The notes: generated by a model from the letters alone, not told the origin. A stretch of DNA of 64,000 bases from Myxococcota bacterium (GCA_965247115.1 CBDFGR010000002.1:608001-672000); one strand, 5' to 3'. Positions 15,322-40,067 are shown, counted from the stretch's first letter. Program-made: numbers and translations.

Positions 15322-15405
15322 CCGAACTTAGGGACGGTCCTTAATCCGAACTTTTTTCGTCCGATCGAGGAGTTAGTTCGGATTAAGGACCGTCCCTAAG
15401 TTCGG
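15322..15405. repeat. Perfect 31-bp inverted repeat with 22-nt spacer (REPIN/MITE-like)
   Basis: ccgaacttagggacggtccttaatccgaact (15322-15352) is the exact reverse complement of 15375-15405. Confidence 0.9.
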
Positions 15406-16585
15406 GCGCGATAGAAGGGTTGCCGAGTTCCGACGGGAGTCGCAAGGCGAGGGGAAGGGCGAAGGCGAGAGCGAGCCCGCACCACGCTGCGACAAGCCAG
15501 CCCAGGCCGGGGAACCCGTAGCCGGCTGCGGCGAGGCCCGTTGCGGCCGGCCCGATCGCTCCGCCCACGGTGCGCGCGCCCGCAGCGGCCGCGCTCCAGC
15601 GCCCTCGCGGATCGAGCGCGGCAAGGCTCCCCATCACGTAGGTGAACGCGACGAAGATGGTACCACCCCAGACGGCCAGCAGGACGGCGTAGGGGCGGCT
15701 TGCTGTGACGTGCCCGATGGAGATGGCGGTCCCGAGCATGATCAGCAGGGTTGCTGTGAGCGGCACGATTCGTCCAGCGCGCGTGCCGAGCCAGGCAGCG
15801 AAGACCGCGCTCACGGCGCTGGCCAGCGTTGCAATGGCAAGCACGTTGCCCATCTCCGCGATGGACAAGCCGACGCCACTACCGATCCGCTCGGCGAACG
15901 CCCACACGCCAAGATCGGACGCACCGAGCAAGACCACCGCGAGCATTGCGGGCAGAGCGAGCGCCCGCCCGGGCGCATCGCGCAACCGCGACCCTCTTCC
16001 GGCGTCCTCGATAGGGGCACGCGGCAGCCACACGACGAGGGGAAGTGCGAGAAGCGAGATTCCCGCCAGGACCGCGTAGCCGCCCGCATACCCGGCCGGC
16101 TCGAGCGCGTACGGCATGAGTGCAAGTTCGATCGCACCGAGCGGTGTGGACACTGCGAAGAACAGCGCGAAAATGCGGTCAGGCTGTGACGATGCTGCGA
16201 TGGCGGCTTGGGCCGCGGCGGCCGCCATGCCGATTCCCGCGCCGGCGACCAAGCGCGAGATCACGAGCCAGGTGAAGCTCTCCGCGGGCACGCCAATCGC
16301 GTGGCCGACGACAGAGATCGCGGTCCCGAGCGCGGCGAAGGCAACGCGCGAGCGGCGCGCTACGACCGGTGTGAGCCCGATGGCAAAGACTGCAATCGCG
16401 GCGAGTTCACATGCGCTGAGCAGGCCTATCCGCTCTGCCCCGAAGCCGAGCTGCTCCGAGATCGAGCCGAGCAGCAGCGGCAGCGCGCTTCCGCTGAAGA
16501 ATTGCAGGCCCAGCGCGGCCACTACCGAGATGACTACACGCACCTCGATCTGACTGGAACGACTTCCCGAATCCGTGGACCTCAC
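15383..16585 (-). CDS. MFS transporter
   Basis: Multiple hydrophobic segments, SRLVAGAGIG, WAFAERIG, AALDPRGRW. Paralog of 25718-26926. Confidence 0.85.
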   Translation of the reverse strand: MRSTDSGSRSSQIEVRVVISVVAALGLQFFSGSALPLLLGSISEQLGFGAERIGLLSACELAAIAVFAIGLTPVVARRSRVAFAALGTAISVVGHAIGVPAESFTWLVISRLVAGAGIGMAAAAAQAAIAASSQPDRIFALFFAVSTPLGAIELALMPYALEPAGYAGGYAVLAGISLLALPLVVWLPRAPIEDAGRGSRLRDAPGRALALPAMLAVVLLGASDLGVWAFAERIGSGVGLSIAEMGNVLAIATLASAVSAVFAAWLGTRAGRIVPLTATLLIMLGTAISIGHVTASRPYAVLLAVWGGTIFVAFTYVMGSLAALDPRGRWSAAAAGARTVGGAIGPAATGLAAAGYGFPGLGWLVAAWCGLALAFALPLALRLPSELGNPSIAPELRDGP

Positions 16586-16637
16586 GGCGCCTGTGCGACC
16601 GCGTCGATCTCGGTCGACATCTCTTCGTGCAGGAGGC

Positions 16638-17495
16638 CTACGGCTGCTCGATCACGGGATTTTCGAGACGGCCAACGCCCTCGATCTCGATGCGCACGAC
16701 AGCGCCGGCTCGCAGGTACTGCGGCGGATCCATCGCGAATCCAACACCGCCAGGCGTACCGGTCGACACGATCGTTCCCGGCAGCAGCGTGAAGACCGTG
16801 GACAGGGTCTCGACCTGAGCGTAGCAGTCGTAGACCAGGTTCTTGGTGTTGGAGTCCTGGCGCAGCTCCCCGTTCACCCAGGTTTGCAGCCGCAAGCCAT
16901 GCGGATCGCCGAGCTCGTCAGGGGTCACGATCCAGGGGCCGATGGGGCCGTGCGTGTCGAACGACTTCCCAAGGGTCATGGTCGGAGCCCGAAATTGCCA
17001 GTCGCGCACGCTCACGTCGTTGACCACCAGGTAACCGGCGATCACCTCGTGCGCGCGTTCGCGGGAGACGTTCCGCGCGGGGCGACCGATGACGAAGCCG
17101 AGCTCGCCCTCGTAGTCGAGCTGGTCCGAGACCCGCGGGAGGTGGATCGGATCGTGCGGCCCGGTCACACAGCTGGTCTGCTTGTTGAAGAACAGGGGGA
17201 ACTCCGGGGTTCCGAGCCCGGCCTCCGCGATGTGGTCCGTGTAGTTGAGGCCGATTGCGAGAAACTCCGGTGGCCTCAGCACGGGCGCTTCGAGCTTCAC
17301 CTCGCCGAGAGGAAGCAGGGACCTCGAGGCGGCAACTGCGCCGCGGGCGGCTTCGAGGGCCGCCTCTCCGGCTGCGAGGAAGGCGGTCATCTCCGTCGGC
17401 AGATTCGGTTCGGCCGCCGACAGGTCGACCACTGCGTCGCCCTCGACGACGCCGATTCGGGTCCGGCCCCCGTGGGTGAACGTGGTGAGCTTCAT
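16638..17495 (-). CDS. Fumarylacetoacetate hydrolase family protein
   Basis: IGLNYTDH, LDYEGELGFVIG, NDVSVRD, GKSFDT, TGTPGGVG. Confidence 0.93.
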   Translation of the reverse strand: MKLTTFTHGGRTRIGVVEGDAVVDLSAAEPNLPTEMTAFLAAGEAALEAARGAVAASRSLLPLGEVKLEAPVLRPPEFLAIGLNYTDHIAEAGLGTPEFPLFFNKQTSCVTGPHDPIHLPRVSDQLDYEGELGFVIGRPARNVSRERAHEVIAGYLVVNDVSVRDWQFRAPTMTLGKSFDTHGPIGPWIVTPDELGDPHGLRLQTWVNGELRQDSNTKNLVYDCYAQVETLSTVFTLLPGTIVSTGTPGGVGFAMDPPQYLRAGAVVRIEIEGVGRLENPVIEQP

Positions 17496-17499
17496 CCCA

Positions 17500-18300
17500 C
17501 TAGGCTCGGACGAAGTCGAGGATCAGCCGGCTCGTGGCGTCCGGCTGCTCGTACCCATAGTAGTGCCCGCAGTCGGGCACGATCTCGAGGCGGGAGCCAG
17601 GCAAGGCCTTGTGGAGGGCCTCGGACAGCGCCGGTGGCGTACGGCCGTCCTCGGCGCCGCAGATGATCAGAACGGCCGCGCGCACGCGCGCGAGCTTCGG
17701 TCCGAAGTCGGAGAGCTCGTCGAGCGCGCTCACCATCTCGGAGTAGTCATCCGAGCTGTTGCGCAGTAGCGTTTGCCGCATCTTCTCGACCGCGGCGGGG
17801 TTCTGCTCCCTGGAGTAGCGGCTAAACGCCGCTCGAGTGAAGTCGAAGGTCGCATCGATGATCTCCTCGACCGACGCCCCGCCATCCGCGAGCCGCTGTC
17901 GCGCCTCGAAGCCTGATTTGTCCTGCACGACCCTCTCCGGACCCGGCGACCCGATCGGGATCACGTGGCTCGCGCGATCGGGGTGCTCGGCCGCGAAGTT
18001 CAGGGTCACCGAGCCGCCGAGAGACCAGCCCGCGAGCGCCGGCCGCTCCAGCCCGAACGCGTCGAGCAAGTCGAGCAAGTCCCTGGTCCAGACGTCGAGC
18101 GACAGCTTCGGCTCGGGCGGGCGGGTCGTCTTTCCGAAGCCCCGCAGGTCGTAGCGGTAGACGCGCCTCTCTCGGGCGAGCGCCGGGACCATTTCGTCCC
18201 AGGTGATCAGATCCGCTCCGCCGCCGTGGACGAGCACGATCGGGGCGCCCTCGCCCGCAACCTCGTAGTTGACATCCAGGTCTCCGATGGTTCGCTGCAC
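17500..18300 (-). CDS. Alpha/beta hydrolase (PcaD/meta-cleavage hydrolase-like)
   Basis: LVHGGG, YDLRGFG, AGWSLGG nucleophile elbow, CGAED, DCGH. Confidence 0.9.
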   Translation of the reverse strand: MQRTIGDLDVNYEVAGEGAPIVLVHGGGADLITWDEMVPALARERRVYRYDLRGFGKTTRPPEPKLSLDVWTRDLLDLLDAFGLERPALAGWSLGGSVTLNFAAEHPDRASHVIPIGSPGPERVVQDKSGFEARQRLADGGASVEEIIDATFDFTRAAFSRYSREQNPAAVEKMRQTLLRNSSDDYSEMVSALDELSDFGPKLARVRAAVLIICGAEDGRTPPALSEALHKALPGSRLEIVPDCGHYYGYEQPDATSRLILDFVRA

Positions 18301-18312
18301 TCTTGGATCTCC

Positions 18313-19293
18313 TTACGCGGCCACGAGCCAGAACTCGCGCAGCTCGGCGGGCGCGAGTCCGGCGGGCGGCGCGCCGCGCGCCGCATAGAACTCGACTCCC
18401 AGCCCGTCGGGATCGCGCACGAACAGGCTGAGCTTTGCAGGGTGGTCGCGACGGACCTCGATCTCGATACCCGCGTCGCTCAACCTCGGCTCCGCGGACT
18501 CGAGGTCGGCCTCGGTCACCTCGAACGCCATGTGGTGGTAGCCAGCGGACTGGCCCCCCTCGGCCTGATAGAGCACCAGGGAGTAGGGAGCCGCGCTACC
18601 GCGCAGGACCGCCAGGCCAGCGTCCTCGGAGTAGATGACGTCGCTGAAGCCGCCAACCTCCCGGTAGAAGGCCAGCTGTAGGGCGAGGTCGGCGCAGCCG
18701 AGCGCCGCGTGAGTCGTGAGGCGGGACTGCACCAGCGCCTCCTCCACGCGAGCGAGGTCCGGATCGATCGAGTAGTTCCGCTCCCGCGACGGGGTGGAGG
18801 CGCCCGGCGTCCAGGGGCCGGTCACCAGCTTCCCTTCCAACTCGCCGAAGATAGCCCGCCAGTCCTTCGTCGAGTCGGACGTGAACTCGAGCATGTTCCG
18901 TTCCGCGTCGAGCAGGTACACACTCTTCGCGAGAGTGTGGTCGACCGTCATGATGATCTCTACACCGAACCCGACGGCCCGCTCGTGAGCCGCTACCAGC
19001 TCCGCCTCGTTCTCCATCTCGAACGCCAGATGGAACAGACCGGGCCGCCGCCCGAACTCTGAGGGCACGAGCAGCTGCCCTTCGCGGCCGATCAACGACT
19101 CCTCCGACAGCTGCGTGAGCCCGACGTCGTGGTGCGTATTACCGTTGCTCATGAAGCCGGCGTGGATGGCAGGCTCCTGGAAGCACTCCTCCAATCCCAC
19201 GACTCGATTGTAGAACTCCATCGAGCTGTGGACGTCGGAGATGAAGAGATTCGCGTGACCAAAGCGGCGCGGCCGGAACTGGGGCTCTGCCAT
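18313..19293 (-). CDS. Two-domain VOC protein, extradiol dioxygenase-like
   Basis: RFGHANL, NTHHDVGL, LFHLAFE, DH..KSVY..D...NMLEF. Second domain TH...HHMAFE...DPDGLGVEF. Confidence 0.82.
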   Translation of the reverse strand: MAEPQFRPRRFGHANLFISDVHSSMEFYNRVVGLEECFQEPAIHAGFMSNGNTHHDVGLTQLSEESLIGREGQLLVPSEFGRRPGLFHLAFEMENEAELVAAHERAVGFGVEIIMTVDHTLAKSVYLLDAERNMLEFTSDSTKDWRAIFGELEGKLVTGPWTPGASTPSRERNYSIDPDLARVEEALVQSRLTTHAALGCADLALQLAFYREVGGFSDVIYSEDAGLAVLRGSAAPYSLVLYQAEGGQSAGYHHMAFEVTEADLESAEPRLSDAGIEIEVRRDHPAKLSLFVRDPDGLGVEFYAARGAPPAGLAPAELREFWLVAA

Positions 19294-19308
19294 GACGAGT
19301 TCTCCTTC

Positions 19309-20493
19309 CTAGCTGTCGGTTCGCAGGGCTGGGTCTGCCGCCTGGAGGCGCCGCACGACGTACTTGCCCAGCTCCCACGTGGTGCGCTCCAGGGGCGAGA
19401 AGCCACCGGTTGGCGAGAAGCGGGAGCTCATGCCCGTGTGGGTGCCCCGAGCGCCGGCCATGTCCTGGTAATTGAGCTCCTCGAAGCCGTTGATAGCATC
19501 CTCGACATTCCGCTGGAAGTCGGGCATGCGGGTGGTGCTCTCCGGGTAGCACAGGTTGATCCGCACCTGAGTGCGATCGACGCCCTCGGGGAAGAACAGC
19601 AGGTAGAGCGCGCCGTCGGGCACGCAGGCGATCAGGGTGTTCGGGTAGATCAGAAAGATGTTGAACGATTGGAGCTCGAATTCACTGAGTCCATCGATCG
19701 CCGGGAAAGGCGACTGCTCGAGCTGGGTGCCGCTCACCCAGGGATGCGGCTTCTCGCAGGGCGTGAAGGAGGTCGTCCAGGCGCGCTCCGGATCCTCCTC
19801 GCCGAAGGTCTCGGCCACCCGATAGAAGTGCGCCACCTCGGGATGGGTCGCGGGAACGTGGTACATGTCGATGCCCTGCTCCACCGAGAGCTTCCAGTTG
19901 CACTCGTTGGTGAAGATCATGGGCTCGCAGGCGCGCAGGTCGCTGAAATTGTAGTTCCCGAAGCGATCCTCGAGTCCAGCGAGCCTGGGGGCAAGAGGCC
20001 GGGCGTTCGGGTCGAAGTTGACGAAGAGGAACCCCTGCCAGACCTCCGTCTTGAGCTGGTGGAGGCTGTGCTGCTTGCGGTCGAAGCCCCTGGCCTGACC
20101 CATGAGCGGTGCGTTCAGCAGCTCGCCCTGCAGCGAATAGGTCCAGCCGTGGAAGGGGCAGCTGAAGTTCCGGCAGCGGCCACGCCCGTCGACGACGAGC
20201 GCACCGCGATGCCGACACACGGTCGACAGCACCCGGACCTCGCCCGTGTCGTCGCGCACGACGACCAGCGGCTCACCGTAGAGCTCGAGCGTGAAGTAGT
20301 CGCCGGGGCTCGGGACCTCGTCCACACGTCCCACGCACGACCACTCCTTCGAGAAGATCTCGCGAGTCTCGCGCTCGAGGATGTCGGAAGAGCGGTAGTA
20401 GTATGACGGTAGCCGCTGCGAACGTTCGAGGGGGTTCAGCAGGGCGGTGAAATCGGAACGCATCTCCTCCGATGCCTTGATCTGCGCTCTCAT
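19309..20493 (-). CDS. Rieske non-heme iron oxygenase alpha subunit (choline monooxygenase/CntA-like group)
   Basis: Rieske cluster CRHRG...CPFHGW. Mononuclear Fe site NWKLSVEQGIDMYHVPATH, then NYQD. Confidence 0.92.
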   Translation of the reverse strand: MRAQIKASEEMRSDFTALLNPLERSQRLPSYYYRSSDILERETREIFSKEWSCVGRVDEVPSPGDYFTLELYGEPLVVVRDDTGEVRVLSTVCRHRGALVVDGRGRCRNFSCPFHGWTYSLQGELLNAPLMGQARGFDRKQHSLHQLKTEVWQGFLFVNFDPNARPLAPRLAGLEDRFGNYNFSDLRACEPMIFTNECNWKLSVEQGIDMYHVPATHPEVAHFYRVAETFGEEDPERAWTTSFTPCEKPHPWVSGTQLEQSPFPAIDGLSEFELQSFNIFLIYPNTLIACVPDGALYLLFFPEGVDRTQVRINLCYPESTTRMPDFQRNVEDAINGFEELNYQDMAGARGTHTGMSSRFSPTGGFSPLERTTWELGKYVVRRLQAADPALRTDS

Positions 20494-20506
20494 CAGACCA
20501 CCTCCC

Positions 20507-21685
20507 CTACTCGGCGAGCTCCCCCATCGTCTTCCGGATCACGTAGCGATCGACCTCCCAAGTCGTCCGCTCCACGTGTGAGAATCGCCCTGGTCGGAGC
20601 AAGCGGGACTTCATGCCGCGCTGCGTGAGCCGGGCACCGACCATGTCCTGGTTGTTCGTGATGGCGAAGCCCTCCATCGCGTCGTTCAGGTGCTTATCGA
20701 AGTCGGGAATCTTGAACGTGCTCTCGGGATAGTAGAGGTTGATCGTCACGTTGGTTCGATCGGGGCCTTCGGGATAGGCGGAAATCGAGAGCGCCCCATC
20801 CGGGAGCGGAGCTACCAGGGTGCTCGGGTAGATCAGGAGCATGTTAAAGCTCTGCAGCTCGAAAGCGCTCAAGCCCTCGAGAGCGGGGAAGGGGGACTTG
20901 GCCATGTTGGTCCCCGTCACGTACGGGTAGGGCGCCTCCGCCTCGGTGAAAGACGTCGTCCACACACCGTTCGGGTCCTCCTCACCAAAGGTCGCAGCCA
21001 TACGCTTCTGGGTCTTGGGCATGAAGTGGATGTTGGGCACGTGGTACATGTCGATCGCCTGCTCGATCGAGAGCTTCCAGTTGCACTCGTTCCAGAACGG
21101 CAGTGCTTTTGTCGCCCGGAGCGAGCTCAGGTTGTAGTTCTTGAACTTCTCAGAGAGCCCCACGAGCTTTGGGCCGAGCGGGGACGCGTCCGGGTCGAAG
21201 TTCACGAAGATGAAACCCTCCCAGATCTCGACGCGCAGCTCGGGCAGGGGCCAGTCGCTGCGATTGAAGTCCGTGGCGCGGTTCATGTTCGGGGCCCCGA
21301 TCAGCGCCCCGTCCAGATTGTAGGTCCAGCCGTGAAAGGGGCACTTGAAGGAGCGGGCGTTTCCCTCACCCTCGACCACACATGCGCCGCGGTGCCGGCA
21401 AGTCCGCGAAAACGCGCGGACTTCTCCTTGCGTATCGCGCAGAATCACGATCGGTTCGTCAGCGATGTCTTTGCAGAAGTAATCTCCGGGGTTCTCGATC
21501 TCATCCACGCGACCGACCCCGAGCCACTCCTTCATGAAGATCTTCCGGACCTCGAGCTCGTAGAACTCGCGCGACGTATAGCAGTGGGGCGGCAGCGTGT
21601 GGGCCTCGTTGAGAGGCCGCATCGTGGCGGCGAGCTGCTCGCGGAGCTGGACGTCGATCTCGGGCGTAGTCGCTGATGCGGTCAC
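20507..21685 (-). CDS. Rieske non-heme iron oxygenase alpha subunit
   Basis: CRHRG...CPFHGW, NWKLSIEQAIDMYHVPNIH, NNQD. Confidence 0.92.
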   Translation of the reverse strand: MTASATTPEIDVQLREQLAATMRPLNEAHTLPPHCYTSREFYELEVRKIFMKEWLGVGRVDEIENPGDYFCKDIADEPIVILRDTQGEVRAFSRTCRHRGACVVEGEGNARSFKCPFHGWTYNLDGALIGAPNMNRATDFNRSDWPLPELRVEIWEGFIFVNFDPDASPLGPKLVGLSEKFKNYNLSSLRATKALPFWNECNWKLSIEQAIDMYHVPNIHFMPKTQKRMAATFGEEDPNGVWTTSFTEAEAPYPYVTGTNMAKSPFPALEGLSAFELQSFNMLLIYPSTLVAPLPDGALSISAYPEGPDRTNVTINLYYPESTFKIPDFDKHLNDAMEGFAITNNQDMVGARLTQRGMKSRLLRPGRFSHVERTTWEVDRYVIRKTMGELAE

Positions 21686-21868: not shown

Positions 21869-22201
21869 ATGGCTGGAGCCACGGTCTTTCATCGCTTCGT
21901 CACAGACGCGAACCCGATCCAGGTCGAGTGGATCGCGATCACGGCCGACTCGGCCCAGGACAACCCCGACGGCTCAGTCAAGAGCCATCTGATCAACCCC
22001 CTGCGCGCCGTCCTTCTGCCAGCCAACCAGGACCGCGGCGGCACTCCATCCGGGGCCAGCGTCGCGCTTCGGCAAGGCTCACCGGAGCTGACTCTCCACG
22101 ATCTCGAGAGCGATCAGGAGATCATGGTGATCGTGATCGGTTTCGGGAGCGTCGACTACACCGAGAAGTACAGACCCGAAGGGACCGGACGCGAGTCTTG
22201 A
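21869..22201 (+). CDS. Hypothetical protein (110 aa), paralog of 38738-39097
   Basis: GGAGG RBS. Gap-free similarity to 38738-39097 supports coding. Stop lies 4 nt before the E1-alpha start. Confidence 0.8.
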   Translation: MAGATVFHRFVTDANPIQVEWIAITADSAQDNPDGSVKSHLINPLRAVLLPANQDRGGTPSGASVALRQGSPELTLHDLESDQEIMVIVIGFGSVDYTEKYRPEGTGRES

Positions 22202-22205
22202 GCCG

Positions 22206-26926: not shown

Positions 26927-26945
26927 GCTCGCTCGCGCTCGGCGC

Positions 26946-27274: not shown

Positions 27275-28174
27275 TCAGGCTTCGGGGGAGGCGCTCTCGA
27301 GCGCCTCGGCTATGGCGACGATGCGCCGGGCCTTCCGGGCCAGCGCGATATCAACGAAGACACCATCGACGGTGAGGGCGGCGGAGCCCTCGGCCTCGGC
27401 CGCCTTTGCGGCCGCGATGACACGGCGGCAGAACTCGACTTCCGCCGGATCCGGTCCGAACCGCTGATTGGCGACCGGAACCTGGTCCGGATGCAGGCAG
27501 AGCTTCCCCTGGAAGCCGAGGAGTCGCGCCCGCTCGCAATCCGCCAGGAAGCCCTCGGCGTCGCGCACCTCGAGGTAGGGGCCGTCGATGGGTCGCTCGC
27601 AGCTCGCGGCGCGCGCATCGAGAATCAGCTTGGCCCGCGCGTAGGCGAGCTCCTCGCCGCTGCGCGACCAGCGAATCGTGAGCAGATCCAGCTCACGGGT
27701 GAGATCACCGCTTCCCAGCACCAGCGTGCGCACCCGCGGACTCGCCGCCGCGATCTCGGCGCCACACACGATTCCCCCCGGCGTCTCGACGAGTGGAAGG
27801 ATCGAAACCGGCCCGGCCAGGTCGCGCTCGCCCTCGAGCTCGGAAAGCCGTCCCGCGAGCTCGACGACCGACTGCGGACTGGCCTTTGGCAACATGACCG
27901 CATCCAGGCCGGGGGCGGCGACCGCGTCCAGGTCTTCCTTCCACAACCCGGTCTCCAGTGCCTGGATCCGCACGCAGGTCAGCGGCACCTGGACCTCGGC
28001 GAGTGCGTCGCGCACGATTGCGCGCGCGCGCGCCTTCTCGCGCGCTGGAACCGCGTCCTCGAGATCGAGCACGACGGCGTCGGCGCCGGACCGAGCCGCC
28101 TTCCCGATCCGGTCGGGCCGGTTGCCCGGGACGAACAGCACCGAGCGCAGGAGCGGGATCGGGCGGTCCGTCAT
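27275..28174 (-). CDS. CitE-like CoA-ester lyase (HpcH/HpaI aldolase/citrate lyase beta family)
   Basis: RSVLFVPGNRP, LDLEDAV, PLVETP, LGSGDL, GFQGKLCLHPDQV. Confidence 0.92.
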   Translation of the reverse strand: MTDRPIPLLRSVLFVPGNRPDRIGKAARSGADAVVLDLEDAVPAREKARARAIVRDALAEVQVPLTCVRIQALETGLWKEDLDAVAAPGLDAVMLPKASPQSVVELAGRLSELEGERDLAGPVSILPLVETPGGIVCGAEIAAASPRVRTLVLGSGDLTRELDLLTIRWSRSGEELAYARAKLILDARAASCERPIDGPYLEVRDAEGFLADCERARLLGFQGKLCLHPDQVPVANQRFGPDPAEVEFCRRVIAAAKAAEAEGSAALTVDGVFVDIALARKARRIVAIAEALESASPEA

Positions 28175-32083: not shown

Positions 32084-33067
32084 CTAGATGAGATGCGGCT
32101 CCAGATCTGCGTACGTTTCATCTCGCCTGAAGTAGAACTCAACCCCGAGCCCGTCAGGATCCTCGAGGAAGATGCTGCGCTTGCTCGGCACATCGACACG
32201 ACGGGTCACCTCGAGGGAAGCGCCCGAGAGCATGCCCTCCGCCGCCTCGAGGTCGGCTTCGTCTTCGATCTCGAAGGCCATGTGGACCAGTCCTGGCGGG
32301 CGGTCGTGCGTCGCCCGAACGAGCGCGAGATCGTAGCCGTGTCGCGGTTGCTTGCCGCGCAGGAGAGCGACACCCGCCTCGGCGCGGGAGTGCACGACCT
32401 GCAGCCCCCCGACCTCCGCGTAGAAGCGCAGGCAGTCGTCGAAGTTCGCGACGGAGAGCACGGCGTGTGTGATCCTGGACGGGTGGAAGATCGCGCCCTT
32501 TGCGCGCTGGATCTCGGGGTCGACCGGGTAGAAGGACTCGGCGACCGGCGGGGAGTCGCCAGGAACCCACGGATCGGTGATGACCTCGTTCTTGAAGGCC
32601 TCGAAGATCGCGCGCCAGTCCTTGACCGAGTCGGCGTAGAACTCGACCCCGTTGCCGTCCGGGTCGAACAGGTAGACGCTGCGCGAAAGCTTGTGATCCA
32701 CCGTCATGCGGAAGTCCACGCTGGCCGCCCGCGCGCGCTCATACCCAACCACGAGCTCTGCCTCGTTCTCCATCTCGAAGGCCAGGTGGTTGATCCCAGG
32801 CTTGCGGCCCCAGGTCTTCGGGTCGGACCGCGGCTGATCGGAGCCCAGGATCCGGTCATCCAGGATCCGTGTGTCCTGGATCTCGACCATGCCGATGTCG
32901 TGGTGCGTGTTCCCGTTGCTCAGGAACCCCGCGTGGATCGCGGGCTCGCGGAACACCTCTTCGAGGCCCGCGACCTCGTTGTAGAAGGCCATCGAGCGCT
33001 CTAGCTCGCCCACATAGAGATTCGCGTGCCCGAGCCGCCGCGGCCCGAAACCGATCTGTTCGCCCAT
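32084..33067 (-). CDS. Two-domain VOC protein, extradiol dioxygenase-like
   Basis: RLGHANL, NTHHDIG, INHLAFE, DHKLSRSVYLFDPDGNGVEF. Paralog of 18313-19293. Confidence 0.82.
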   Translation of the reverse strand: MGEQIGFGPRRLGHANLYVGELERSMAFYNEVAGLEEVFREPAIHAGFLSNGNTHHDIGMVEIQDTRILDDRILGSDQPRSDPKTWGRKPGINHLAFEMENEAELVVGYERARAASVDFRMTVDHKLSRSVYLFDPDGNGVEFYADSVKDWRAIFEAFKNEVITDPWVPGDSPPVAESFYPVDPEIQRAKGAIFHPSRITHAVLSVANFDDCLRFYAEVGGLQVVHSRAEAGVALLRGKQPRHGYDLALVRATHDRPPGLVHMAFEIEDEADLEAAEGMLSGASLEVTRRVDVPSKRSIFLEDPDGLGVEFYFRRDETYADLEPHLI

Positions 33068-33110
33068 TATCATTCCCCCTTTGTGAAACCGGGAGCTGAC
33101 AGCAAACGCA

Positions 33111-34274
33111 TCATGATGCGGCGAGCTCCTCTCCGACCGTCATCCGGATCACGTACTTGTCTAGCTCCCAGGTAGTTCTCTCAAGATACGAAAAGCGCCC
33201 CGGGGGGAGCAGTCTCGACTTCATCCCCCGGTGTGTGAGCTTCGCACCCACCATGTCCTGGTTATTGGTCACGATGAACCCCTCCTGCGCAGCGGCCAGG
33301 TGCTTGTCGAAATCGGGGATCTTCGTCGTGGACTCAGGATAGTATAGGTTCAGCGTCACGTTGGTTCGCCCCGCCCCCTCGGGATAGAAGAACAGAGCCA
33401 GGGCCCCTGTCGGCAACGGCGCCACCAGCGTGCTCGGATAGATCAGGAACATGCTGAAGCTCTGCAGCTCGAAGGGCGTGAGGCCTTCGAGCGCGGGAAA
33501 CGGAGATACAACTTCGTTGGTGCCGGTCACATAGGGAAAGGGGGCGTCTGCCTTCGTGAACGAGCAGGTCCAGCTCTGATTCGGATCCTCTTCACCGAAG
33601 GTGGCTCCGACTCGCTTCACGCTGCGCCGCATGAAGTGGATGTTGGGCACGTGGTACATGTCGATCGCCTGCTCGGCAGAGAGCTTCCAGTTGCACTGGT
33701 TCCAGAACGGCATGCCCTGGGTGGTCCGGAGCTCGCTCATCTTGTAGTTCCCGAATAGCTCGGAAAGCCGGACGAGCCTCGGTCCCAGCGGAGCCGCGTC
33801 GCGATCGAAGTTCACGAAGATGAAGCCCTCCCACACTTCCACGCGGAGCTCGGGGAGCGACCAATCGCGAACGTGGAAGTCCGCCGTGCGGTTCATCTGC
33901 CGGGCTCCGAGAAGCTCTCCCCGGAGGTTGTAGGTCCAGCCGTGAAAAGGACACTCGAGGTATTTCGTGCTGCCCGCACCTTCGACGATGCAGGCTCCCC
34001 GGTGCCGACATGTTCGGGAGAACGCGCGCAAGACCCCCTTGTCGTCGCGCAGGATCACGATCGGCTCCTCGACGATGTCAGCGCAGAAGTAGTCGCCGGG
34101 GCTCTCGACCTGATCGACGCGACCGACGCCCAGCCACTCCTTCATGAAGATCTTCTCGATCTCGAGCTCGTAGAACTCCGGCGAGGTGTAGCAGTACGGC
34201 GGGAGGGTGTGAGCCTGGTCGAGGGGTGCGAGCACCCTCCTGAGCTGCTCTCTCAGCTCGCTCCTGACCTCCAA
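33111..34274 (-). CDS. Rieske non-heme iron oxygenase alpha subunit
   Basis: CRHRG...CPFHGW, NWKLSAEQAIDMYHVPNIH, NNQD. Close paralog of 20507-21685. Confidence 0.92.
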   Translation of the reverse strand: MEVRSELREQLRRVLAPLDQAHTLPPYCYTSPEFYELEIEKIFMKEWLGVGRVDQVESPGDYFCADIVEEPIVILRDDKGVLRAFSRTCRHRGACIVEGAGSTKYLECPFHGWTYNLRGELLGARQMNRTADFHVRDWSLPELRVEVWEGFIFVNFDRDAAPLGPRLVRLSELFGNYKMSELRTTQGMPFWNQCNWKLSAEQAIDMYHVPNIHFMRRSVKRVGATFGEEDPNQSWTCSFTKADAPFPYVTGTNEVVSPFPALEGLTPFELQSFSMFLIYPSTLVAPLPTGALALFFYPEGAGRTNVTLNLYYPESTTKIPDFDKHLAAAQEGFIVTNNQDMVGAKLTHRGMKSRLLPPGRFSYLERTTWELDKYVIRMTVGEELAAS

Positions 34275-34296: not shown

Positions 34297-36732
34297 CTAG
34301 GGGCGCTTGGAGCTCGACCTGGAGGATCTGGGACCGTTGCCGAAGATGCTCAGGTCCTCCGAGTCGAAGCTACGGGAGACACTGATCCCGTACCTGCGAG
34401 GGGGGGCCGCGTAGACGTGGGTGTTGTTGAAGCTCGCGACGCGGAACGCGGTGTTCGCGTAGTTCCGATCCAGCAGGTTCTTGCCCCACAGCGCGATCTC
34501 GGTCTTGCCGTCAGGAAGCAGGAGCGAGATGCGGCCGTTCAGCAGTCCGTAGGCGTTCTGCTGCGCGTCCTTGCTGTTCTGCACGTCGTAGTACGTCTTT
34601 GACTGGTGGTACCAGTCGGCTCGAACAATCAGCTCGCCCATGGGGAGGCTAGCTCGGTAGTCGCCTCCCAGCCCGAAATTCAGCGCAGGTGCGTTCGCGA
34701 AATGGAGCCCGGCCCTGTCGATGGGCCCTCCGGTGTCGGGATCGACGTCGTCGAACTCGTCATAGCGAGCCCAGGTGGTCCCCACCTGCCCCTCGATGCG
34801 GAGATTCGAGGCGACCAGCGCGGTGAGCTCGAGCTCGATGCCGGAGATCGTCGCTTTACCGGCGTTCCGGACGGTCGAGACGATCCCCCGACCCTCCTCT
34901 CCTCCTCCCTCAGTTCCCTGGCCCGACTCTCCGAAAGCGATCAGCTGGATATCGTCGTACTCACCGTAGTAGAAGACTCCGTTTGCGATGACGCGGTTTT
35001 CGAACAGCTGGACCTTGACGCCGGCCTCGAAGCTGTCCAGGGTCTCGCTCTCGAAAGGGTTATCCAGCTCTTCCTGACGCAGCAGGAACCCGTTGAAGCC
35101 GCCACTGCGAAACCCGCGACTGTAGCCGGCGTAGAACATCAAATCGTCGTTGGGGCGGAAGCGGACGTTGAACCGGGGCGTCCAGCTCTGAAAGCGGTCG
35201 CTTCCCTTTCCAACGAAGACCGGATCGCCCGCGAAAATCGCGAACTCGTTGACGATGTCAATCTCCTTGTAGTCGGCTGTACGCCGGACGCCAGCGGTGA
35301 CGGAGAGGCTGTCAGTAAGGTCGTAGGTGAACTCCGCAAAGCCCGCCAAGCTCGACGCAGTTGCGGTCTCATCGACCCCGACCCGCTCGGGCCCGAAGAT
35401 GTCCGCGAAGAAGTCGGTGTCGTCGTTGAAATCGCCGACCTCGCGGAACCAGTAGAGTCCGGCCACATAGTTCAGGCGGCCGTCCGCTGCGATGCCGGTG
35501 AACTGGATCTCCTGGCTGAGCTGATCCTCTCGGTTCGACGTCAGGAGGAACTCGTTGCCGATGTTCTCGCGACTCATATCATCGTCGAAGCGGAGCTGGT
35601 ACTCCTGAGCTCGCCAGGCGGTGATGGACTTCAAGGAGAGCTCGCCAAGGAAGCCCACCTCTCCCAGGTCGTAGTCGATGATGGCCGTTGAGGACCAGGT
35701 GTCGACGTCGTTCTTGCCTGCCAGCTGCGAGTCGACATCGTGGTAGTCCGCTGCTCGGACGGCGTCACAGGACTCCTGGTATGGGATACCAAAGAGCCCG
35801 GCAAGCTCCACGACGGCGGCGCCCTGCGGGGCCGGTGGATCGATATAGAAGCACTTGGCAATGGGCGACTTCGTGCGGCTGCGTGAGTAGTCATAACTCA
35901 CGTTGATGTCGAGCCGATCGTTCGGGATGAAGCGCAGAGCGGCGCGCACGGCTCTGTTGTTCCCGGTCGCGAAGTGCGAGCCATCGAAAATGTTGTCCAG
36001 GTAACCCTCGTCGTTGCGGAGGCCCAGGTTGAGACGGAGGAAGAGCTTCTCGGCGAGCGACCCCACCCCGATCGGGACGTTGAGCATCAGCTTGCTCATG
36101 ACCTGCTCCTGGTTGCCGAGACCCGCCTCGGCGTAGGCCTCGAACTCCGGCTGGGGCTTCCTGGTGATGTAGTCGATCGCGCCGCCCACGGTGTTCCGGC
36201 CAAAGGTCACGCCCTGAGGGCCGCGGAGCGCCTCCACGCGCTCGAGATCGATCACGTCGAACAGGCCTCCCGTCATCCGTGCCAGGTACACGCCGTCGAC
36301 ATAGATACCCACCCCCTGGTCGCGGGTCGGCGTGAAGTCCTCCTGTCCAACACCGCGGATGTAGACCTTGGAGTAGGTGCTGCCCGAGACGTTCTCAAAG
36401 GTCAGGTTCGGAACGGACCGGGTCAGCTCCCGGTTCTCGAAAACGGAACGTATGCTCAGATCCTCGGCGGAGAAGGCAGAAACTGCGACTGGGACGTCCT
36501 GTAGCCTCTCCTCGCGTTTCCGCGAGGTCACGACGATCTCCTCGATGGCATCGGGGGCGTCTCGAGCCTCAGGGGACTCCGTGGCGACCGACTCCTGGGC
36601 GGCCACGGGAACCTTGCCTTCGGGCTCGTCGGCTGTAGCAGAGAGTACTGGCCCAACAAACAGGACGAGCACGACGAGTGCGAGTCCGCGAAGCCCCCAC
36701 CTTGACAGCATAATCAACATTGAGAGCAGCAT
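34297..36732 (-). CDS. TonB-dependent receptor
   Basis: GGAGG RBS before ATG 36732, signal-peptide-like N-terminus. TonB box IEEIVVTSRKREE, DLERVEALRGPQG..FGRNTVGGAI, GFRSGGFN, KNLLD, PRRYG. Confidence 0.92.
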   Translation of the reverse strand: MLLSMLIMLSRWGLRGLALVVLVLFVGPVLSATADEPEGKVPVAAQESVATESPEARDAPDAIEEIVVTSRKREERLQDVPVAVSAFSAEDLSIRSVFENRELTRSVPNLTFENVSGSTYSKVYIRGVGQEDFTPTRDQGVGIYVDGVYLARMTGGLFDVIDLERVEALRGPQGVTFGRNTVGGAIDYITRKPQPEFEAYAEAGLGNQEQVMSKLMLNVPIGVGSLAEKLFLRLNLGLRNDEGYLDNIFDGSHFATGNNRAVRAALRFIPNDRLDINVSYDYSRSRTKSPIAKCFYIDPPAPQGAAVVELAGLFGIPYQESCDAVRAADYHDVDSQLAGKNDVDTWSSTAIIDYDLGEVGFLGELSLKSITAWRAQEYQLRFDDDMSRENIGNEFLLTSNREDQLSQEIQFTGIAADGRLNYVAGLYWFREVGDFNDDTDFFADIFGPERVGVDETATASSLAGFAEFTYDLTDSLSVTAGVRRTADYKEIDIVNEFAIFAGDPVFVGKGSDRFQSWTPRFNVRFRPNDDLMFYAGYSRGFRSGGFNGFLLRQEELDNPFESETLDSFEAGVKVQLFENRVIANGVFYYGEYDDIQLIAFGESGQGTEGGGEEGRGIVSTVRNAGKATISGIELELTALVASNLRIEGQVGTTWARYDEFDDVDPDTGGPIDRAGLHFANAPALNFGLGGDYRASLPMGELIVRADWYHQSKTYYDVQNSKDAQQNAYGLLNGRISLLLPDGKTEIALWGKNLLDRNYANTAFRVASFNNTHVYAAPPRRYGISVSRSFDSEDLSIFGNGPRSSRSSSKRP

Positions 36733-37845: not shown

Positions 37846-38244
37846 TCAGCCCGGAATCCCGACCACGCACTCCACCTCGATGAGCAGCTCCGGGAGCGCC
37901 AGGTTGGAGACCTCGACCAGCGTGCTCGCGGGTCGCGCGTTCCCGAAGAATGCCTCGCGGATGGGGTTGATCTTCGCGCGGTCAGCGATGTCCTTCAGGT
38001 AGATGGTGACCTTCAGGATGTCGGCTGGGCTCGCTGCCTCGGCGCTCAGCACCTTGCCGATGTTGCTGAACACCTCGCCAGCCTGAGTCAGCACGTCGCC
38101 CTCACCGATCACCTGGTGTTGCTCGTCGAGCGCCACCATCCCCGAGATGAAGAGCAGATTCCCGAACCGAACCGCGTCGGTATAGTGGCTGATGGGCGGA
38201 CTGAGACTGGCGACCCGGACTTCCGTGCGCGTTTCCTTGCTCAT
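37846..38244 (-). CDS. RidA/YjgF family protein (lacks conserved Arg)
   Basis: SHYTDAV, LFISGMV, ILKVTIYL, PASTLVEVSNL, IEVECV. Confidence 0.88.
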   Translation of the reverse strand: MSKETRTEVRVASLSPPISHYTDAVRFGNLLFISGMVALDEQHQVIGEGDVLTQAGEVFSNIGKVLSAEAASPADILKVTIYLKDIADRAKINPIREAFFGNARPASTLVEVSNLALPELLIEVECVVGIPG

Positions 38245-38330: not shown

Positions 38331-38726
38331 ATGCAGAAGGAGGTCATCAACCCAGATACGCTCGCGCCTCCGGTCGGCCACTTTGACCGGGCCGTACGTA
38401 TCGACAATACCCTCTACATCTCGGGAACGTCGGCCCTGACGCACGTCACGGGGGGCCTGCGGGAGCGGAAGATTCCGCCGACGATCGAGGAGCAGACCCG
38501 GCTCACCTTTGAGAACATCCGGAGAGTGCTCGAGGCGGCGGGAGGCCAGCTCTCCGACATCTTCAAGCTCACGGTCTTCCTCGTGCGAGCGGAGGATTTC
38601 GAGGTCGTCGACCAGATCACGCGCGAGTTCTTGCCCGCGCGCGGCTTCATCAACTCCTCTTTCCAGACCGACCTACTCAACCCCGATCTGCTGATCGAGA
38701 TAGAGGCGACCGCTCAGCTCAAGTAG
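38331..38726 (+). CDS. RidA/YjgF family protein (lacks conserved Arg)
   Basis: PPVGHFDRAV, LYISGT, IEEQTR, IFKLTVFL, LIEIEATA. GGAGG RBS. Confidence 0.88.
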   Translation: MQKEVINPDTLAPPVGHFDRAVRIDNTLYISGTSALTHVTGGLRERKIPPTIEEQTRLTFENIRRVLEAAGGQLSDIFKLTVFLVRAEDFEVVDQITREFLPARGFINSSFQTDLLNPDLLIEIEATAQLK

Positions 38727-38737
38727 GAGAAAGACCC

Positions 38738-39097
38738 ATGGGCAACGCGCTAGTGAATCACCGATTCCTGACGGACATCAATCCGATCACCGTGGAGTGG
38801 ATCAAGCTCACCGGAGACACGCCTCAGGACAACCCGGAGAAATCAATCGGGAGCAACCTCGTAAACGTGATCACCGGAGTTGTGCTGCCCGCGAACGCGG
38901 ACCTGGGCGGACAGCCGACCCGGATGAGCCTGGAGATCGTGCCGGGAAGCCAGGAGCTCCTACTACACGACCTGGACGACGGCCAGGAGGCCCTCGTCAT
39001 CCTGATCGGCTTCGGGCGGCGGGACTTCCGCGACGTGTTCCAGAGAGAAGAGGACACGAACCAGTCGTTCGCCGCGTCCGGAGGCGAGGAGGAGTAG
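38738..39097 (+). CDS. Hypothetical protein (119 aa), paralog of 21869-22201
   Basis: AGGAG RBS. Shares HRF.TD.NPI.VEWI, QDNP, LPAN.D.GG, LHDL, IGFG with 21869-22201. Confidence 0.8.
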   Translation: MGNALVNHRFLTDINPITVEWIKLTGDTPQDNPEKSIGSNLVNVITGVVLPANADLGGQPTRMSLEIVPGSQELLLHDLDDGQEALVILIGFGRRDFRDVFQREEDTNQSFAASGGEEE

Positions 39098-39098
39098 C

Positions 39099-40067
39099 TC
39101 AGGGACTCGCGAGGACGACGGGATTCGAGAGTACGCCGATTCCCTCGATCTCGCAGCTCACGACGTCACCCGGCTGGAGATAGCCGGGAGCCAGCACAAC
39201 ATCCTCGCGCTGCCGGGGTCGTCCCCCGAGCTCGGGGTCGGAGCCCCAGGCCGTGCCTCCCGGCGTACCCGTCGAGATTACGAAGCCGGGCTGCAGCGTC
39301 AGGTACGTCGAGAAGAAGACCACCAGCTCGGCTACGCCCCAGATCATGTGCGCGGTGGTGTTGTTCTGGCGGAGTTCGCCGTTGACCGTAGTGCGCAGCG
39401 CCAGAGTCTGGGGGTCGGGAATCTCGTCGCTGGTGACGATGACGGGACCCATCGGGGCGCAGGTGTCGAAGTTCTTGCTCCCGCCGATAGCGTAGGCCGC
39501 GGTACCGTCGGGGCGCAGCTTCACCTGACGGTCGCGCGCGGTGCAGTCGTGCATGATCGTGTAGCCGAACACGTGCTCCAGCGCCCTCTCCACCGGGATG
39601 TGGCGGCCTGCCTTGCCGATCACGATGGCAAGCTCGGTCTCGTAGTCGAGCTTCTTTGTGACCTTCGGATCCAGGATGATGTCGACTCCGGGACCGACGA
39701 CGCACTGGGGGAGCTTGATGAAGAACTCGGGCTCCTTTCCTTCGACGGGGGGCTTCTCCTCTCGGTGGTCGTAGTAATTCTCCCCGCTGCACAGGATCGC
39801 CTCCGGTCTCAGTGGCGCCGCGAGGCGGAGCTCGGCGAGCTTGCGCCGCCCGCTGCCCAACTCTCGACTCGTCCCGAGCGCCCGTTGCGCGAGAGCCCGA
39901 CCGGCTGGGCCGGCGGCGATGAAGGGGATGGAGTCGACTACGCTCGCGCGTTCCGAATGCGAGAGGCTTCCGTCGGCCTCGAGCGCCTCGACCAGGTCGA
40001 CCACCTCGTCGCCGTCGAGCACGCCCAACCGGATCCCCTCCGGCGTTCCATAGCGGAGCAATTTCAC
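39099..40067 (-). CDS. Fumarylacetoacetate hydrolase family protein
   Basis: GENYYDH, LDYETELAIVIG, HDCTARD, SKNFDT, TGTPGG. Confidence 0.92.
   Translation of the reverse strand: MKLLRYGTPEGIRLGVLDGDEVVDLVEALEADGSLSHSERASVVDSIPFIAAGPAGRALAQRALGTSRELGSGRRKLAELRLAAPLRPEAILCSGENYYDHREEKPPVEGKEPEFFIKLPQCVVGPGVDIILDPKVTKKLDYETELAIVIGKAGRHIPVERALEHVFGYTIMHDCTARDRQVKLRPDGTAAYAIGGSKNFDTCAPMGPVIVTSDEIPDPQTLALRTTVNGELRQNNTTAHMIWGVAELVVFFSTYLTLQPGFVISTGTPGGTAWGSDPELGGRPRQREDVVLAPGYLQPGDVVSCEIEGIGVLSNPVVLASP

What the first reader, a model, noticed from the sequence alone, without database searches (positions are those of the whole stretch)
15383..40067. Internally duplicated Rieske/VOC/hydrolase/FAH/RidA catabolic island: candidate undescribed degradation pathway
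Seen: module A (21685 to 15383) is Rieske, Rieske, VOC, hydrolase, FAH, MFS. Module B (36732 to 25718) is TonB receptor, Rieske, VOC, hydrolase x2, CoA-transferase, LLM, CitE-like lyase, ABM, MFS. Each module has divergent genes that include one copy of an unassigned small protein, with E1a/E1b/E2 beside A and VOC plus RidA x3 beside B. Known: oxygenase, extradiol dioxygenase, hydrolase, FAH is the logic of meta-cleavage pathways; RidA-fold enzymes hydrolyse imines/enamines (e.g. 2-aminomuconate deaminase); CMO/CntA-group Rieskes act on N-containing substrates. Inference: an import-to-acyl-CoA pathway for a nitrogenous aromatic or heterocyclic compound class, with paralogs covering related substrates. 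I do not recognise this combination as a described pathway.
Basis: partly seen in the sequence, partly recalled or inferred. Interest (0 to 1): 0.8.

Follow-up and report, generated by a model that had tools for sequence, protein, structure and literature searches.

The report
Domain-reversed ring-cleavage dioxygenase catabolic island
A 25-kb bacterial gene island carries two related sets of degradation enzymes, including an apparently unstudied dioxygenase family whose metal-binding residues lie in the opposite half of the protein from the textbook enzymes, and it likely breaks open a nitrogen-containing ring compound that is not yet identified.

Summary
The genes are real and as listed, but the whole island is not a conserved unit and not a simple duplication. 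The two VOC genes are not sisters (AU p 5e-5); only Rieske A1 and B are. The main discovery lies inside the finding: the VOC proteins form a widespread clade (290 GTDB matches) with catechol 2,3-dioxygenase fold and all six catalytic residues, but in the N-terminal domain. Elsewhere this clade sits beside flavin, Rieske or molybdenum hydroxylases, formamidases/amidases, hydrolases, Rid and FAH, in places matching the 4-hydroxypyridine kpi line-up with the VOC in the dioxygenase slot. The Rieske proteins are a rare alpha-only clade lacking CntA-group substrate signatures. The orphan small protein is a real gene that travels with this Rieske clade. Best reading (0.5): hydroxylation, ring cleavage beside a ring nitrogen, deacylation, imine hydrolysis, then FAH and 2-oxoacid dehydrogenase steps to acyl-CoA. 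Substrate, reductase and activities are untested.

The parts
15383..16585 (-). MFS transporter A
   Evidence: PF07690; 45% to MFS B
16638..17495 (-). FAH-family enzyme A (predicted acylpyruvate hydrolase step)
   Evidence: PF01557 235 bits; metal and catalytic motifs present
17500..18300 (-). alpha/beta hydrolase A, Ser-Asp-His triad (predicted deacylase)
   Evidence: PF00561; motifs; below all NCBIfam cut-offs
18313..19293 (-). VOC A: two-domain extradiol-dioxygenase fold with the catalytic set H13, H55, H88, H119, Y126, E136 in the N-terminal domain
19309..20493 (-). Rieske oxygenase alpha A2 (second subclade)
   Evidence: PF00355+PF00848; ligands invariant; tree
20507..21685 (-). Rieske oxygenase alpha A1
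21869..22201 (+). orphan small protein A (110 aa)
   Evidence: ribosome-binding site and codon-position pattern of a conserved gene; no family; homologue between two Rieske-clade genes in L093
22206..25724 (+). 2-oxoacid dehydrogenase E1 alpha (22206-23339), E1 beta (23344-24342), E2 (24357-25724); no E3
   Evidence: all below named cut-offs; same order behind the small gene in G002
25718..26945 (-). MFS transporter B (start approximate; the listed ORF runs to 27154)
   Evidence: PF07690
26946..27263 (-). ABM-domain protein
   Evidence: PF03992; 76% copy beside E2 in G002
27275..28174 (-). CitE-like acyl-CoA lyase
   Evidence: PF03328; TIGR01588 188 of 443 bits
28171..29205 (-). luciferase-like (LLM) oxidoreductase
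   Evidence: PF00296; best TIGR03619 144 of 167 bits
29206..30414 (-). family III CoA-transferase
   Evidence: PF02515
30442..32065 (-). alpha/beta hydrolases B2 (30442 to about 31245) and B1 (31256-32065)
32084..33073 (-). VOC B, same domain-reversed clade, separate lineage from VOC A
33111..34274 (-). Rieske oxygenase alpha B, sister of A1
34297..36732 (-).
   Evidence: PF00593+PF07715
36891..37388 (+). single-domain VOC protein
   Evidence: PF00903; end of a close copy in L094
37409..37837 (+). Rid protein 1, Arg at the catalytic position by motif
   Evidence: PF01042; alignment
37846..38244 (-). Rid protein 2, Ser in place of the catalytic Arg; 60-62% copies lie near or directly upstream of VOC-A-type genes elsewhere
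38331..38726 (+). Rid protein 3, Arg position ambiguous; 76% copy divergent from a Rieske-clade gene in L094
38738..39097 (+). orphan small protein B (119 aa)
39099..40067 (-). FAH-family enzyme B
   Evidence: PF01557
40089..40913 (-). SDR at the right edge (membership uncertain)
   Evidence: PF00106; PRK08264 type 269 of 279 bits

Best explanation
The island encodes two old, related enzyme sets that likely import and break down a nitrogen-containing ring compound, with a dioxygenase whose metal-binding residues lie in the N-terminal domain predicted to open the ring. Steps: (1) uptake by the TonB receptor and MFS carriers (inferred from family); (2) Rieske alpha subunits A1, A2 and B make a vicinal diol, by two hydroxylations or by dioxygenation with loss of a substituent, since no clear dihydrodiol dehydrogenase is in module A; the reductase must come from elsewhere in the genome (cofactor ligands shown, reaction inferred); (3) the domain-reversed VOC cleaves next to the diol with Fe(II) or Mn(II) and O2 (residues and fold shown, activity inferred), most likely beside the ring nitrogen, giving an N-acyl enamine; (4) the Ser-Asp-His hydrolases remove the N-acyl group, Rid 1 (and perhaps Rid 3) hydrolyses the imine, FAH splits the acylpyruvate (inferred by analogy with KpiB/KpiD); (5) the 2-oxoacid goes through E1/E2 to an acyl-CoA; module B adds a CoA-transferase and CitE-like lyase for a dicarboxylate product (weakly inferred). 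The orphan small protein is likely an accessory of this Rieske clade.
For: VOC: AlphaFold model pLDDT 96.5, best fold match XylE (Z 25.6, rmsd 2.8 A, 266 residues). H13/H55/H88/H119/Y126/E136 kept in 115/122/122/120/121/121 of 122 rows, the C-domain equivalents are degenerate; they align to the C-domain catalytic residues of XylE. Profile test against 5 canonical catechol 2,3-dioxygenases: N-half vs canonical C-half 117.5 against 92.3 for N vs N; C-half vs canonical N-half 94.5 against 86.1. Neighbours within 5 kb in 61 loci of 15 kb or more: hydroxylase/oxygenase 29, formamidase or amidase 24, alpha/beta hydrolase 16, Rid 13, FAH 6, against 3.5%, 4.1%, 6.6%, 2.0%, 0.8% of random 11-kb windows of this genome, and 0 VOC-clade genes in 42 loci of distant Rieske relatives. 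The flavoprotein beside the VOC in Alcaligenes (L072) is closest to the pyridine-ring enzyme MHPCO (E 4e-63). L024 holds VOC, FAH, Rid, FAD monooxygenase, GntR and hydrolase together, and L087 and L091 most of that set, the family line-up of the 4-hydroxypyridine kpi cluster (PMC7356986, passages read) with the VOC in the place of KpiC. Rieske clade linked to the small protein in L093 and to Rid 3 and the small VOC in L094. It shares Gln-x-x-Asp-Met-Tyr-His with biphenyl and benzene dioxygenases. No DmpG or tautomerase in a 98% complete genome.
Against: No activity or substrate is shown. The neighbour profiles were built from the same loci and kin are not independent (9 Dehalococcoidia rows and one 21-row clade carry most formamidase counts). 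No Pfam formamidase or amidase lies in this island, and many VOC loci have none of these neighbours. Rid 2, the Rid that travels with VOC A, lacks the catalytic Arg. The swap signal is modest: 1 of 5 canonical enzymes scored the other way for the N-half, and structure aligners match collinearly. The tight Rieske clade was beside the VOC in 0 of 79 GTDB loci and absent from 50 genomes that carry the VOC; the Rieske-VOC link outside this genome rests on five shared contig lengths in two hit lists, unverified. E1, CitE and the small protein occur near the VOC in 0 of 79 loci. No reductase or ferredoxin in the island. Hydrolases resemble lactonases and esterases as much as amidases.
Confidence: 0.5

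Rival explanations
1. Aminoarene route: the substrate is a benzene ring with an amino group (aminophenol, aminobenzoate or aniline type); the VOC cleaves an aminophenol or catechol and Rid acts like 2-aminomuconate deaminase.
For: Rid beside the VOC clade on about ten separate branches (by eye); a protein I recall as CnbZ-deaminase-like near it in L029 and L088 (label recalled, not tested); dioxygenation with loss of ammonia would explain the missing dihydrodiol dehydrogenase; Rid 2 has a weak match to 2-aminomuconate deaminase 6izh (42 bits).
Against: No aldehyde dehydrogenase in the island, no tautomerase or DmpG in the genome; Rid 2 lacks the Arg; formamidases and MHPCO-like partners elsewhere fit ring nitrogen better.
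Confidence: 0.2
2. N-free aromatic route: ordinary catechol-type meta-cleavage of a substituted or polycyclic aromatic, with the hydrolases as C-C hydrolases or lactonases and the Rids as bystanders.
For: Fold and catalytic set of catechol 2,3-dioxygenases; Rieske motif shared with biphenyl dioxygenase; CarC- and CumD-type hydrolases among PDB hits (78-82 bits); phthalate-dioxygenase-like Rieske genes beside some VOCs.
Against: BphD scores 55-73 of 462 bits; lower-pathway genes missing; three Rids in the island, one conserved beside the Rieske clade in L094.
Confidence: 0.13
3. Mosaic: separate small catabolic units gathered in one hot spot; modules A and B, the E1/E2 set and the CoA-transferase/lyase genes serve unrelated substrates.
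For: VOC A and B are separate lineages; in G002 the small-E1-E2-ABM block is only 68-75% identical while the Rieske fragment is 93%; E1, CitE and small protein never beside the VOC elsewhere; genome rich in IS copies.
Against: Same order Rieske-VOC-hydrolase in both modules with gaps under 40 bases; G002 keeps small-E1-E2, ABM, a CoA-transferase end and a Rieske end together; module A through CitE intact in run X4.
Confidence: 0.1
4. Quaternary-amine route: the Rieske enzymes are CntA/CMO-like C-N cleaving or demethylating monooxygenases on an N-alkyl compound.
For: CntA is the best full-length solved match (190 bits, profile 27-361); GbcA the best NCBIfam model (136-156 bits); no beta subunit in the island.
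Against: Position 203 is Ala/Gly, not Tyr/Phe (Va) or Asn (Vb); Asp for Glu205; no CxxC (PMC7948474 and PMC10952381, passages read); GbcA cut-off is 670; they are packed with a ring-cleavage enzyme.
Confidence: 0.07

Closest known systems
Type I class II extradiol dioxygenases (XylE 1mpy, C23O64 5zsz, LapB, BphC, HPCD)
   Same: Two-domain VOC fold (Z 23-26); His-His-Glu triad plus second-sphere His, His, Tyr.
   Different: Catalytic set in the N-terminal domain; 14-18% identity; below every named cut-off. PMC6880040 (passages read) states that metal binding and catalysis are not likely in the N-terminal domains of enzymes characterised to date.
kpi 4-hydroxypyridine pathway of Arthrobacter sp. 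IN13 (PMC7356986, passages read)
   Same: Hydroxylase, extradiol ring cleavage, PF00561 hydrolase (KpiB), PF01557 FAH (KpiD), ending in a 2-oxoacid; the same family set surrounds the VOC in L024 and partly L087, L091.
   Different: KpiA is a flavoprotein and KpiC an amidohydrolase-fold dioxygenase; here Rieske enzymes and a VOC fill those slots. Sequence identity to Kpi proteins was not tested.
Group V Rieske oxygenases (CntA, CMO, Stc2, GbcA)
   Same: Alpha-only context, about 390 aa, best full-length profile match.
   Different: No Tyr/Phe/Asn at 203, Asp bridge, no CxxC; linked to ring-cleavage genes.
2-aminophenol / 2-aminomuconate deaminase pathways and Rut pyrimidine pathway (recalled; PMC6742747 and PMC8113886 seen as listings only)
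   Same: Rid protein in a ring-degradation cluster; Rut also has an LLM enzyme and an alpha/beta hydrolase.
   Different: RutC and RutD models score far below cut-off (59 of 169, 60-80 of 238 bits); no aldehyde dehydrogenase, tautomerase or aldolase.
LinE/PcpA-type VOC ring-cleaving enzymes (named in PMC4250580 passages; their metal-site layout is recalled)
   Same: VOC dioxygenases outside the main lineage, showing that other module arrangements exist.
   Different: They are weak fold matches here (3oaj, which I recall as this type, Z 9.0); this clade keeps an intact XylE-type catalytic domain moved to the front.

Membership tests
Type I class II extradiol dioxygenase | two-domain VOC fold | tested here: met
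Type I class II extradiol dioxygenase | 2-His-1-Glu metal triad with second-sphere His, His, Tyr | tested here: met
Type I class II extradiol dioxygenase | [quoted passage not shown] | tested here: not met
   catalytic set at residues 13-136; C-domain degenerate
Type I class II extradiol dioxygenase | metal- and O2-dependent ring cleavage | not testable with these tools
   needs assay
Group V quaternary-amine Rieske oxygenase | Rieske CxH..CxxH and His-His-Asp iron triad; no beta subunit | tested here: met
Group V quaternary-amine Rieske oxygenase | Tyr/Phe (Va) or Asn (Vb) at CntA position 203 | tested here: not met
   Ala or Gly in all 34 rows of the clade
Group V quaternary-amine Rieske oxygenase | CntA-type bridging Glu and CxxC pair (present in some members only) | tested here: not met
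   Asp bridge, no cysteines
Group V quaternary-amine Rieske oxygenase | phylogenetic placement among characterised members | not tested
Classical catechol meta-cleavage pathway (xyl/dmp/bph) | BphD-type C-C hydrolase | tested here: inconclusive
   55-73 bits against cut-off 462, but CarC/CumD among PDB hits at 78-82 bits
Classical catechol meta-cleavage pathway (xyl/dmp/bph) | DmpG aldolase and 4-oxalocrotonate tautomerase | tested here: not met
   PF07836 and PF01361 not found in G000, 98% complete
Classical catechol meta-cleavage pathway (xyl/dmp/bph) | cis-dihydrodiol dehydrogenase, reductase and ferredoxin in the cluster | tested here: inconclusive
   only a generic SDR at the edge; reductase and ferredoxin candidates lie far away
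kpi 4-hydroxypyridine pathway | FAD_binding_3 monooxygenase (KpiA) | tested here: not met
   absent from the island; present beside the VOC in 24 of 79 other loci
kpi 4-hydroxypyridine pathway | amidohydrolase-fold dioxygenase (KpiC) | not tested
   a PF01979 gene lies just outside (13956-15188) and was not compared with KpiC
kpi 4-hydroxypyridine pathway | PF00561 hydrolase and PF01557 FAH | tested here: met
   family level only
RidA-type imine deaminase | catalytic Arg105 (PMC4433059, passages read): Rid 1 | tested here: met
   motif alignment
RidA-type imine deaminase | catalytic Arg105: Rid 2 | tested here: not met
   Ser aligned to the Arg of solved RidA proteins
RidA-type imine deaminase | catalytic Arg105: Rid 3 | tested here: inconclusive
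   an Arg kept in the L094 copy aligns only with a three-residue insertion

The most novel reading that the evidence does not exclude
The domain-reversed VOC clade is a widespread, undescribed family of ring-cleaving dioxygenases for hydroxylated N-heterocycles, a fourth fold solution beside NicX, KpiC and LigB-type PydA, and this island couples it to a new alpha-only Rieske clade that needs an orphan 110-residue partner, together defining an unknown route for N-heterocycle turnover in uncultured bacteria.
Probability: 0.3. Interest if true: 0.8.

Novelty: new variant of a known kind. Interest (0 to 1): 0.6.

Why it matters
Two-domain extradiol dioxygenases are held to use their C-terminal domain. 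A clade of hundreds of members with the catalytic domain in front, auto-named 'catechol 2,3-dioxygenase' or 'VOC family', gives a direct test of how these enzymes evolved and of what the silent domain does. It occurs in cultured Alcaligenes, Pusillimonas, Paraburkholderia, Cupriavidus and Frankia in compact operons, so the substrate can be found in the laboratory even though this island comes from an uncultured organism. It is also multiplied in Alphaproteobacteria and Dehalococcoidia MAGs, where unknown oxygenases are thought to act on refractory organic matter (PMC6946804, passages read). The Rieske clade and its orphan neighbour are fresh biocatalyst candidates. The island as a whole is rare and variable, so it matters less than its parts.

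Tried and rejected
Small protein: no family in Pfam, NCBIfam, PHROGs or PDB; AlphaFold model from 3 sequences unusable (pLDDT 35); Atlas gave only weak unnamed viral clusters at 0.90 with low recognition and nothing for P0002; no relatives by pattern in metagenome contigs or in 50 VOC-bearing genomes. The 50%-cluster search gave 11 hits: P0002, five short proteins of 45-114 aa without context (P0243, P0245, P0247, P0249, P0251) and five repeat-rich proteins dropped as spurious. A phage origin was not supported by two viral scans. Contig identity behind the shared contig lengths could not be looked up. No plasmid carries the VOC; plasmid Rieske hits are 36% or less. Promoter and terminator scans were at chance level. 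RNA: contigs of two metatranscriptome runs of one study (X19, X20) cover pieces from FAH A to E2, but no silent control could be laid, so expression is not claimed. Habitat is not known; run labels are coded. Earlier findings: three look-ups, nothing. One search used wrong frames for 3 of 5 control enzymes and was replaced. Rejected: recent tandem duplication; the Alcaligenes hpa, pic and dip clusters as the identity of the Alcaligenes VOC operon (recalled only; they are not known to me to include such a VOC). Literature: 10 searches found no description of the clade; most subscription journals are not in the library, and no supplements were read.

Full report
Setting. The window is G000:C2:608001-672000, in a 5.17-Mb, 98% complete genome in 3 contigs. 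Its congener G002 corresponds to loci titled Myxococcota MAG, so the host is probably an uncultured Myxococcota. GC in the island (62-70%) is like the genome (66%).

Observation. All genes of the finding are present with the named families. Pairwise identities are 73% (Rieske A1/B), 54-55% (A2), 49% (VOC), 52-55% (hydrolases), 45% (MFS), 51% (small proteins) and 40% (FAH). One Rid is on the minus strand. None of the 28 proteins scanned reached a named NCBIfam cut-off. The island has no Rieske beta subunit, reductase, ferredoxin, E3 or recognisable regulator; the genome's single beta subunit, single Reductase_C and single FAD_binding_6 matches lie far away.

Is it a duplication? Only in part. 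A tree with VOC A and VOC B held together is rejected (AU p 5e-5, 22 rows); VOC A is 67% identical to a third copy on C3 and 68-69% to copies in gammaproteobacterial MAGs. Rieske A1 and B are sisters, A2 belongs to a second subclade (FastTree, 57 rows). The modules are old paralogues with the same order, Rieske-VOC-hydrolase, plus one younger Rieske duplication.

Is it conserved? Not as a whole. The small protein and the VOC were found in 1 of 60 related genomes (G002), the tight Rieske clade in 0 of 400 other genomes of the phylum (four candidates scored per genome). G002 (95% complete) keeps a remnant: small gene, E1a, E1b, an IS, E2, facing ABM, a CoA-transferase end and the 3' half of Rieske A1 at 93%; a 72% copy of hydrolase A lies elsewhere behind an IS and ahead of an SDR resembling the one that follows VOC-A-type genes. 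Near-identical DNA is in 20 of 24 listed runs from 10 studies, and one contig of run X4 spans 13907-27985. Two short unrelated metagenome contigs carry pieces of the linkage: L093 has the small gene (48%) between two Rieske-clade genes, L094 has Rid 3 (76%) and the end of the small VOC divergent from a Rieske A2-type gene. Five contig lengths are shared between the VOC and Rieske hit lists (3040, 4951, 7875, 96933, 2738818), which suggests but does not prove co-location.

The VOC is domain-reversed. The model (pLDDT 96.5) matches catechol 2,3-dioxygenases (Foldseek E 1e-17; Z 25.6). But the family profile aligns its positions 16-146 to XylE 149-268 and its positions 200-317 to XylE 8-126. H13, H55, H88, H119, Y126 and E136 are kept in 115, 122, 122, 120, 121 and 121 of 122 rows (6 of the 7 misses at H13 are gaps); in the C-domain the matching His, His and Glu are kept in 103, 103 and 78 and the second-sphere His and Tyr are missing. 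Against five canonical enzymes fetched by TIGR03211 the crossed pairings win: 117.5 and 94.5 against 92.3 and 86.1; per sequence 4 of 5 and 5 of 5. Structure aligners match collinearly because the domains share a fold, so they do not test the swap. PMC6880040 (passages) says the N-terminal domains of characterised enzymes are not likely catalytic. Circular permutation is the simplest history; independent duplication of a one-domain ancestor is not excluded. The clade is large: 134 proteins at E 1e-20 among 8000 scored and 290 of 337 pattern matches in GTDB genomes, of which 79 loci were fetched.

What the VOC clade keeps company with. In the 61 loci of 15 kb or more, within 5 kb: a hydroxylase or oxygenase in 29 (FAD monooxygenase 15, Rieske 13, molybdenum enzyme 3), a formamidase or amidase in 24, an alpha/beta hydrolase in 16, Rid in 13, FAH in 6; random windows of this genome give 3.5%, 4.1%, 6.6%, 2.0% and 0.8%; 42 loci of distant Rieske relatives hold no such VOC and no FAH. 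These counts are inflated by kin and by profiles built from the same loci; by eye on the quick tree Rid recurs on about ten branches and amide hydrolases on about six. The FAD enzyme of L072 is closest to MHPCO, a pyridine-ring oxygenase (E 4e-63, next family 1e-25). No tautomerase, DmpG-type aldolase or acetaldehyde dehydrogenase family appeared among the 168 neighbour proteins scanned (81 cluster representatives and 87 of 127 further ORFs), and G000 shows neither DmpG nor tautomerase. L024 holds VOC, FAH, Rid, FAD monooxygenase, GntR and hydrolase, the families of the kpi 4-hydroxypyridine cluster, where a flavoprotein makes 3,4-dihydroxypyridine, KpiC opens it to a proposed N-formyl product, the hydrolase KpiB gives 3-formylpyruvate and the FAH KpiD is proposed to finish (PMC7356986, passages). 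E1, CitE and the small protein were near the VOC in 0 of 79 loci.

The Rieske enzymes. They form a clade of 34 rows with support 100 and invariant cluster and iron ligands. CntA is the best full-length solved match (190 bits), but Tyr203, which binds the quaternary amine in group Va and is Asn in Vb (PMC7948474, passages), is Ala or Gly; the bridge is Asp, and the CxxC of some group V members (PMC10952381, passages) is absent. The local motif is that of biphenyl and benzene dioxygenases. So CntA likeness is no evidence for an amine substrate; ring oxygenation is more likely.

Other parts. The three hydrolases have Ser-Asp-His triads and score best, yet far below cut-off, as PcaD lactonases. 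Rid 1 has the Arg needed for imine hydrolysis (PMC4433059, passages), Rid 2 has Ser, Rid 3 is ambiguous. The small genes are real: third codon positions differ most (0.49-0.55 against 0.61-0.81), 24 of 54 shared residues use other codons in the A/B pair, and both have ribosome-binding sites. Their family is tiny and unassigned.

Mechanism. Shown: gene content, cofactor and catalytic residues, fold, linkage. Inferred: Rieske enzymes make a diol; the reversed VOC opens the ring, likely beside nitrogen; hydrolase, Rid and FAH release the acyl group, ammonia or amine and a 2-oxoacid; E1/E2 make acyl-CoA; module B adds CoA-transferase and lyase for a dicarboxylate. I put 0.8 on ring cleavage by the VOC and 0.5 on the N-heterocycle route; aminoarene 0.2, N-free aromatic 0.13, mosaic 0.1, quaternary amine 0.07.

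Verdict. It works like a pyridinediol or meta-cleavage pathway but fails membership of the classical pathway, of group V Rieske enzymes and, on domain order, of class II extradiol dioxygenases. Ten literature searches found no account of the clade, but most subscription journals are missing and no supplements were read. New variant of a known kind; interest 0.6, carried by the domain-reversed dioxygenase and its cultured carriers.

Noticed in passing
window 9528-10232 (-) and 15322-15405: A Y1 transposase-like gene (weak PF01797; RAYT-like by my recall) and a perfect 31-base inverted repeat that recurs at dozens of places in the genome and in G002; run X4 lacks parts of 15242-15463. Looks like a RAYT/REP system; the repeat overlaps the end of MFS A.
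   Followed up: partly
G000:C3:369400-389399 (L013): Third VOC copy (67% to VOC A) with SDR, FAH, hydrolase, two amidases, four cupins, a flavin monooxygenase-like gene, LLM and UGSC-family genes, no Rieske; conserved in G002.
   Followed up: partly
L060, L072, L076, L077, L080, L083, L086, L089, L090: Compact operon in cultured Alcaligenes, Paraburkholderia and Cupriavidus: MFS, BD-FAE (formamidase-like) hydrolase, reversed VOC, MHPCO-like monooxygenase, MarR or AraC regulator; substrate unknown to me; best handle for experiments.
   Followed up: partly
L041, L042, L046, L050, L051, L057, L065, L074, L092: Dehalococcoidia MAGs place the VOC among several amidohydrolases, two or three formamidases, a proline-racemase-like gene, LLM enzymes and CoA-transferases.
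   Followed up: no
L020, L025, L031, L034, L036, L058: One alphaproteobacterial MAG chromosome holds many copies of the reversed VOC, some in tandem, at six separate loci.
   Followed up: no
L037, L043, L063, L084, L088: VOC with a LigXa-like Rieske oxygenase, reductase, GFO dehydrogenase, RraA-like aldolase, aspartate-dehydrogenase-like gene and ABC transporter: another unassigned pathway.
   Followed up: no
window 13015-15188 (-): An esterase-like protein with a twin-arginine-like start and a PF01979 amidohydrolase just left of MFS A; may extend module A; not compared with KpiC.
   Followed up: no
window 736-9428 (+): Thiolase-like, CoA-transferase, amidohydrolase, PrpF, PEP-mutase/ICL-family lyase and a flavoprotein: a further catabolic run.
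   Followed up: no
window 48935-56780 (-): Aldehyde:ferredoxin oxidoreductase with a pyridine-nucleotide reductase, and a penicillin-amidase-like gene that covers only part of its profile and abuts an IS (DUF772/DDE) present in many copies genome-wide.
   Followed up: no
window 60752-60840: tRNA-Leu(GAG), 20 kb right of the island; no link shown.
   Followed up: no
P0245, P0249, P0251: Short (84-93 aa) distant relatives of the orphan small protein, 35-39% identical, without context; Atlas features point weakly to small viral proteins.
   Followed up: partly
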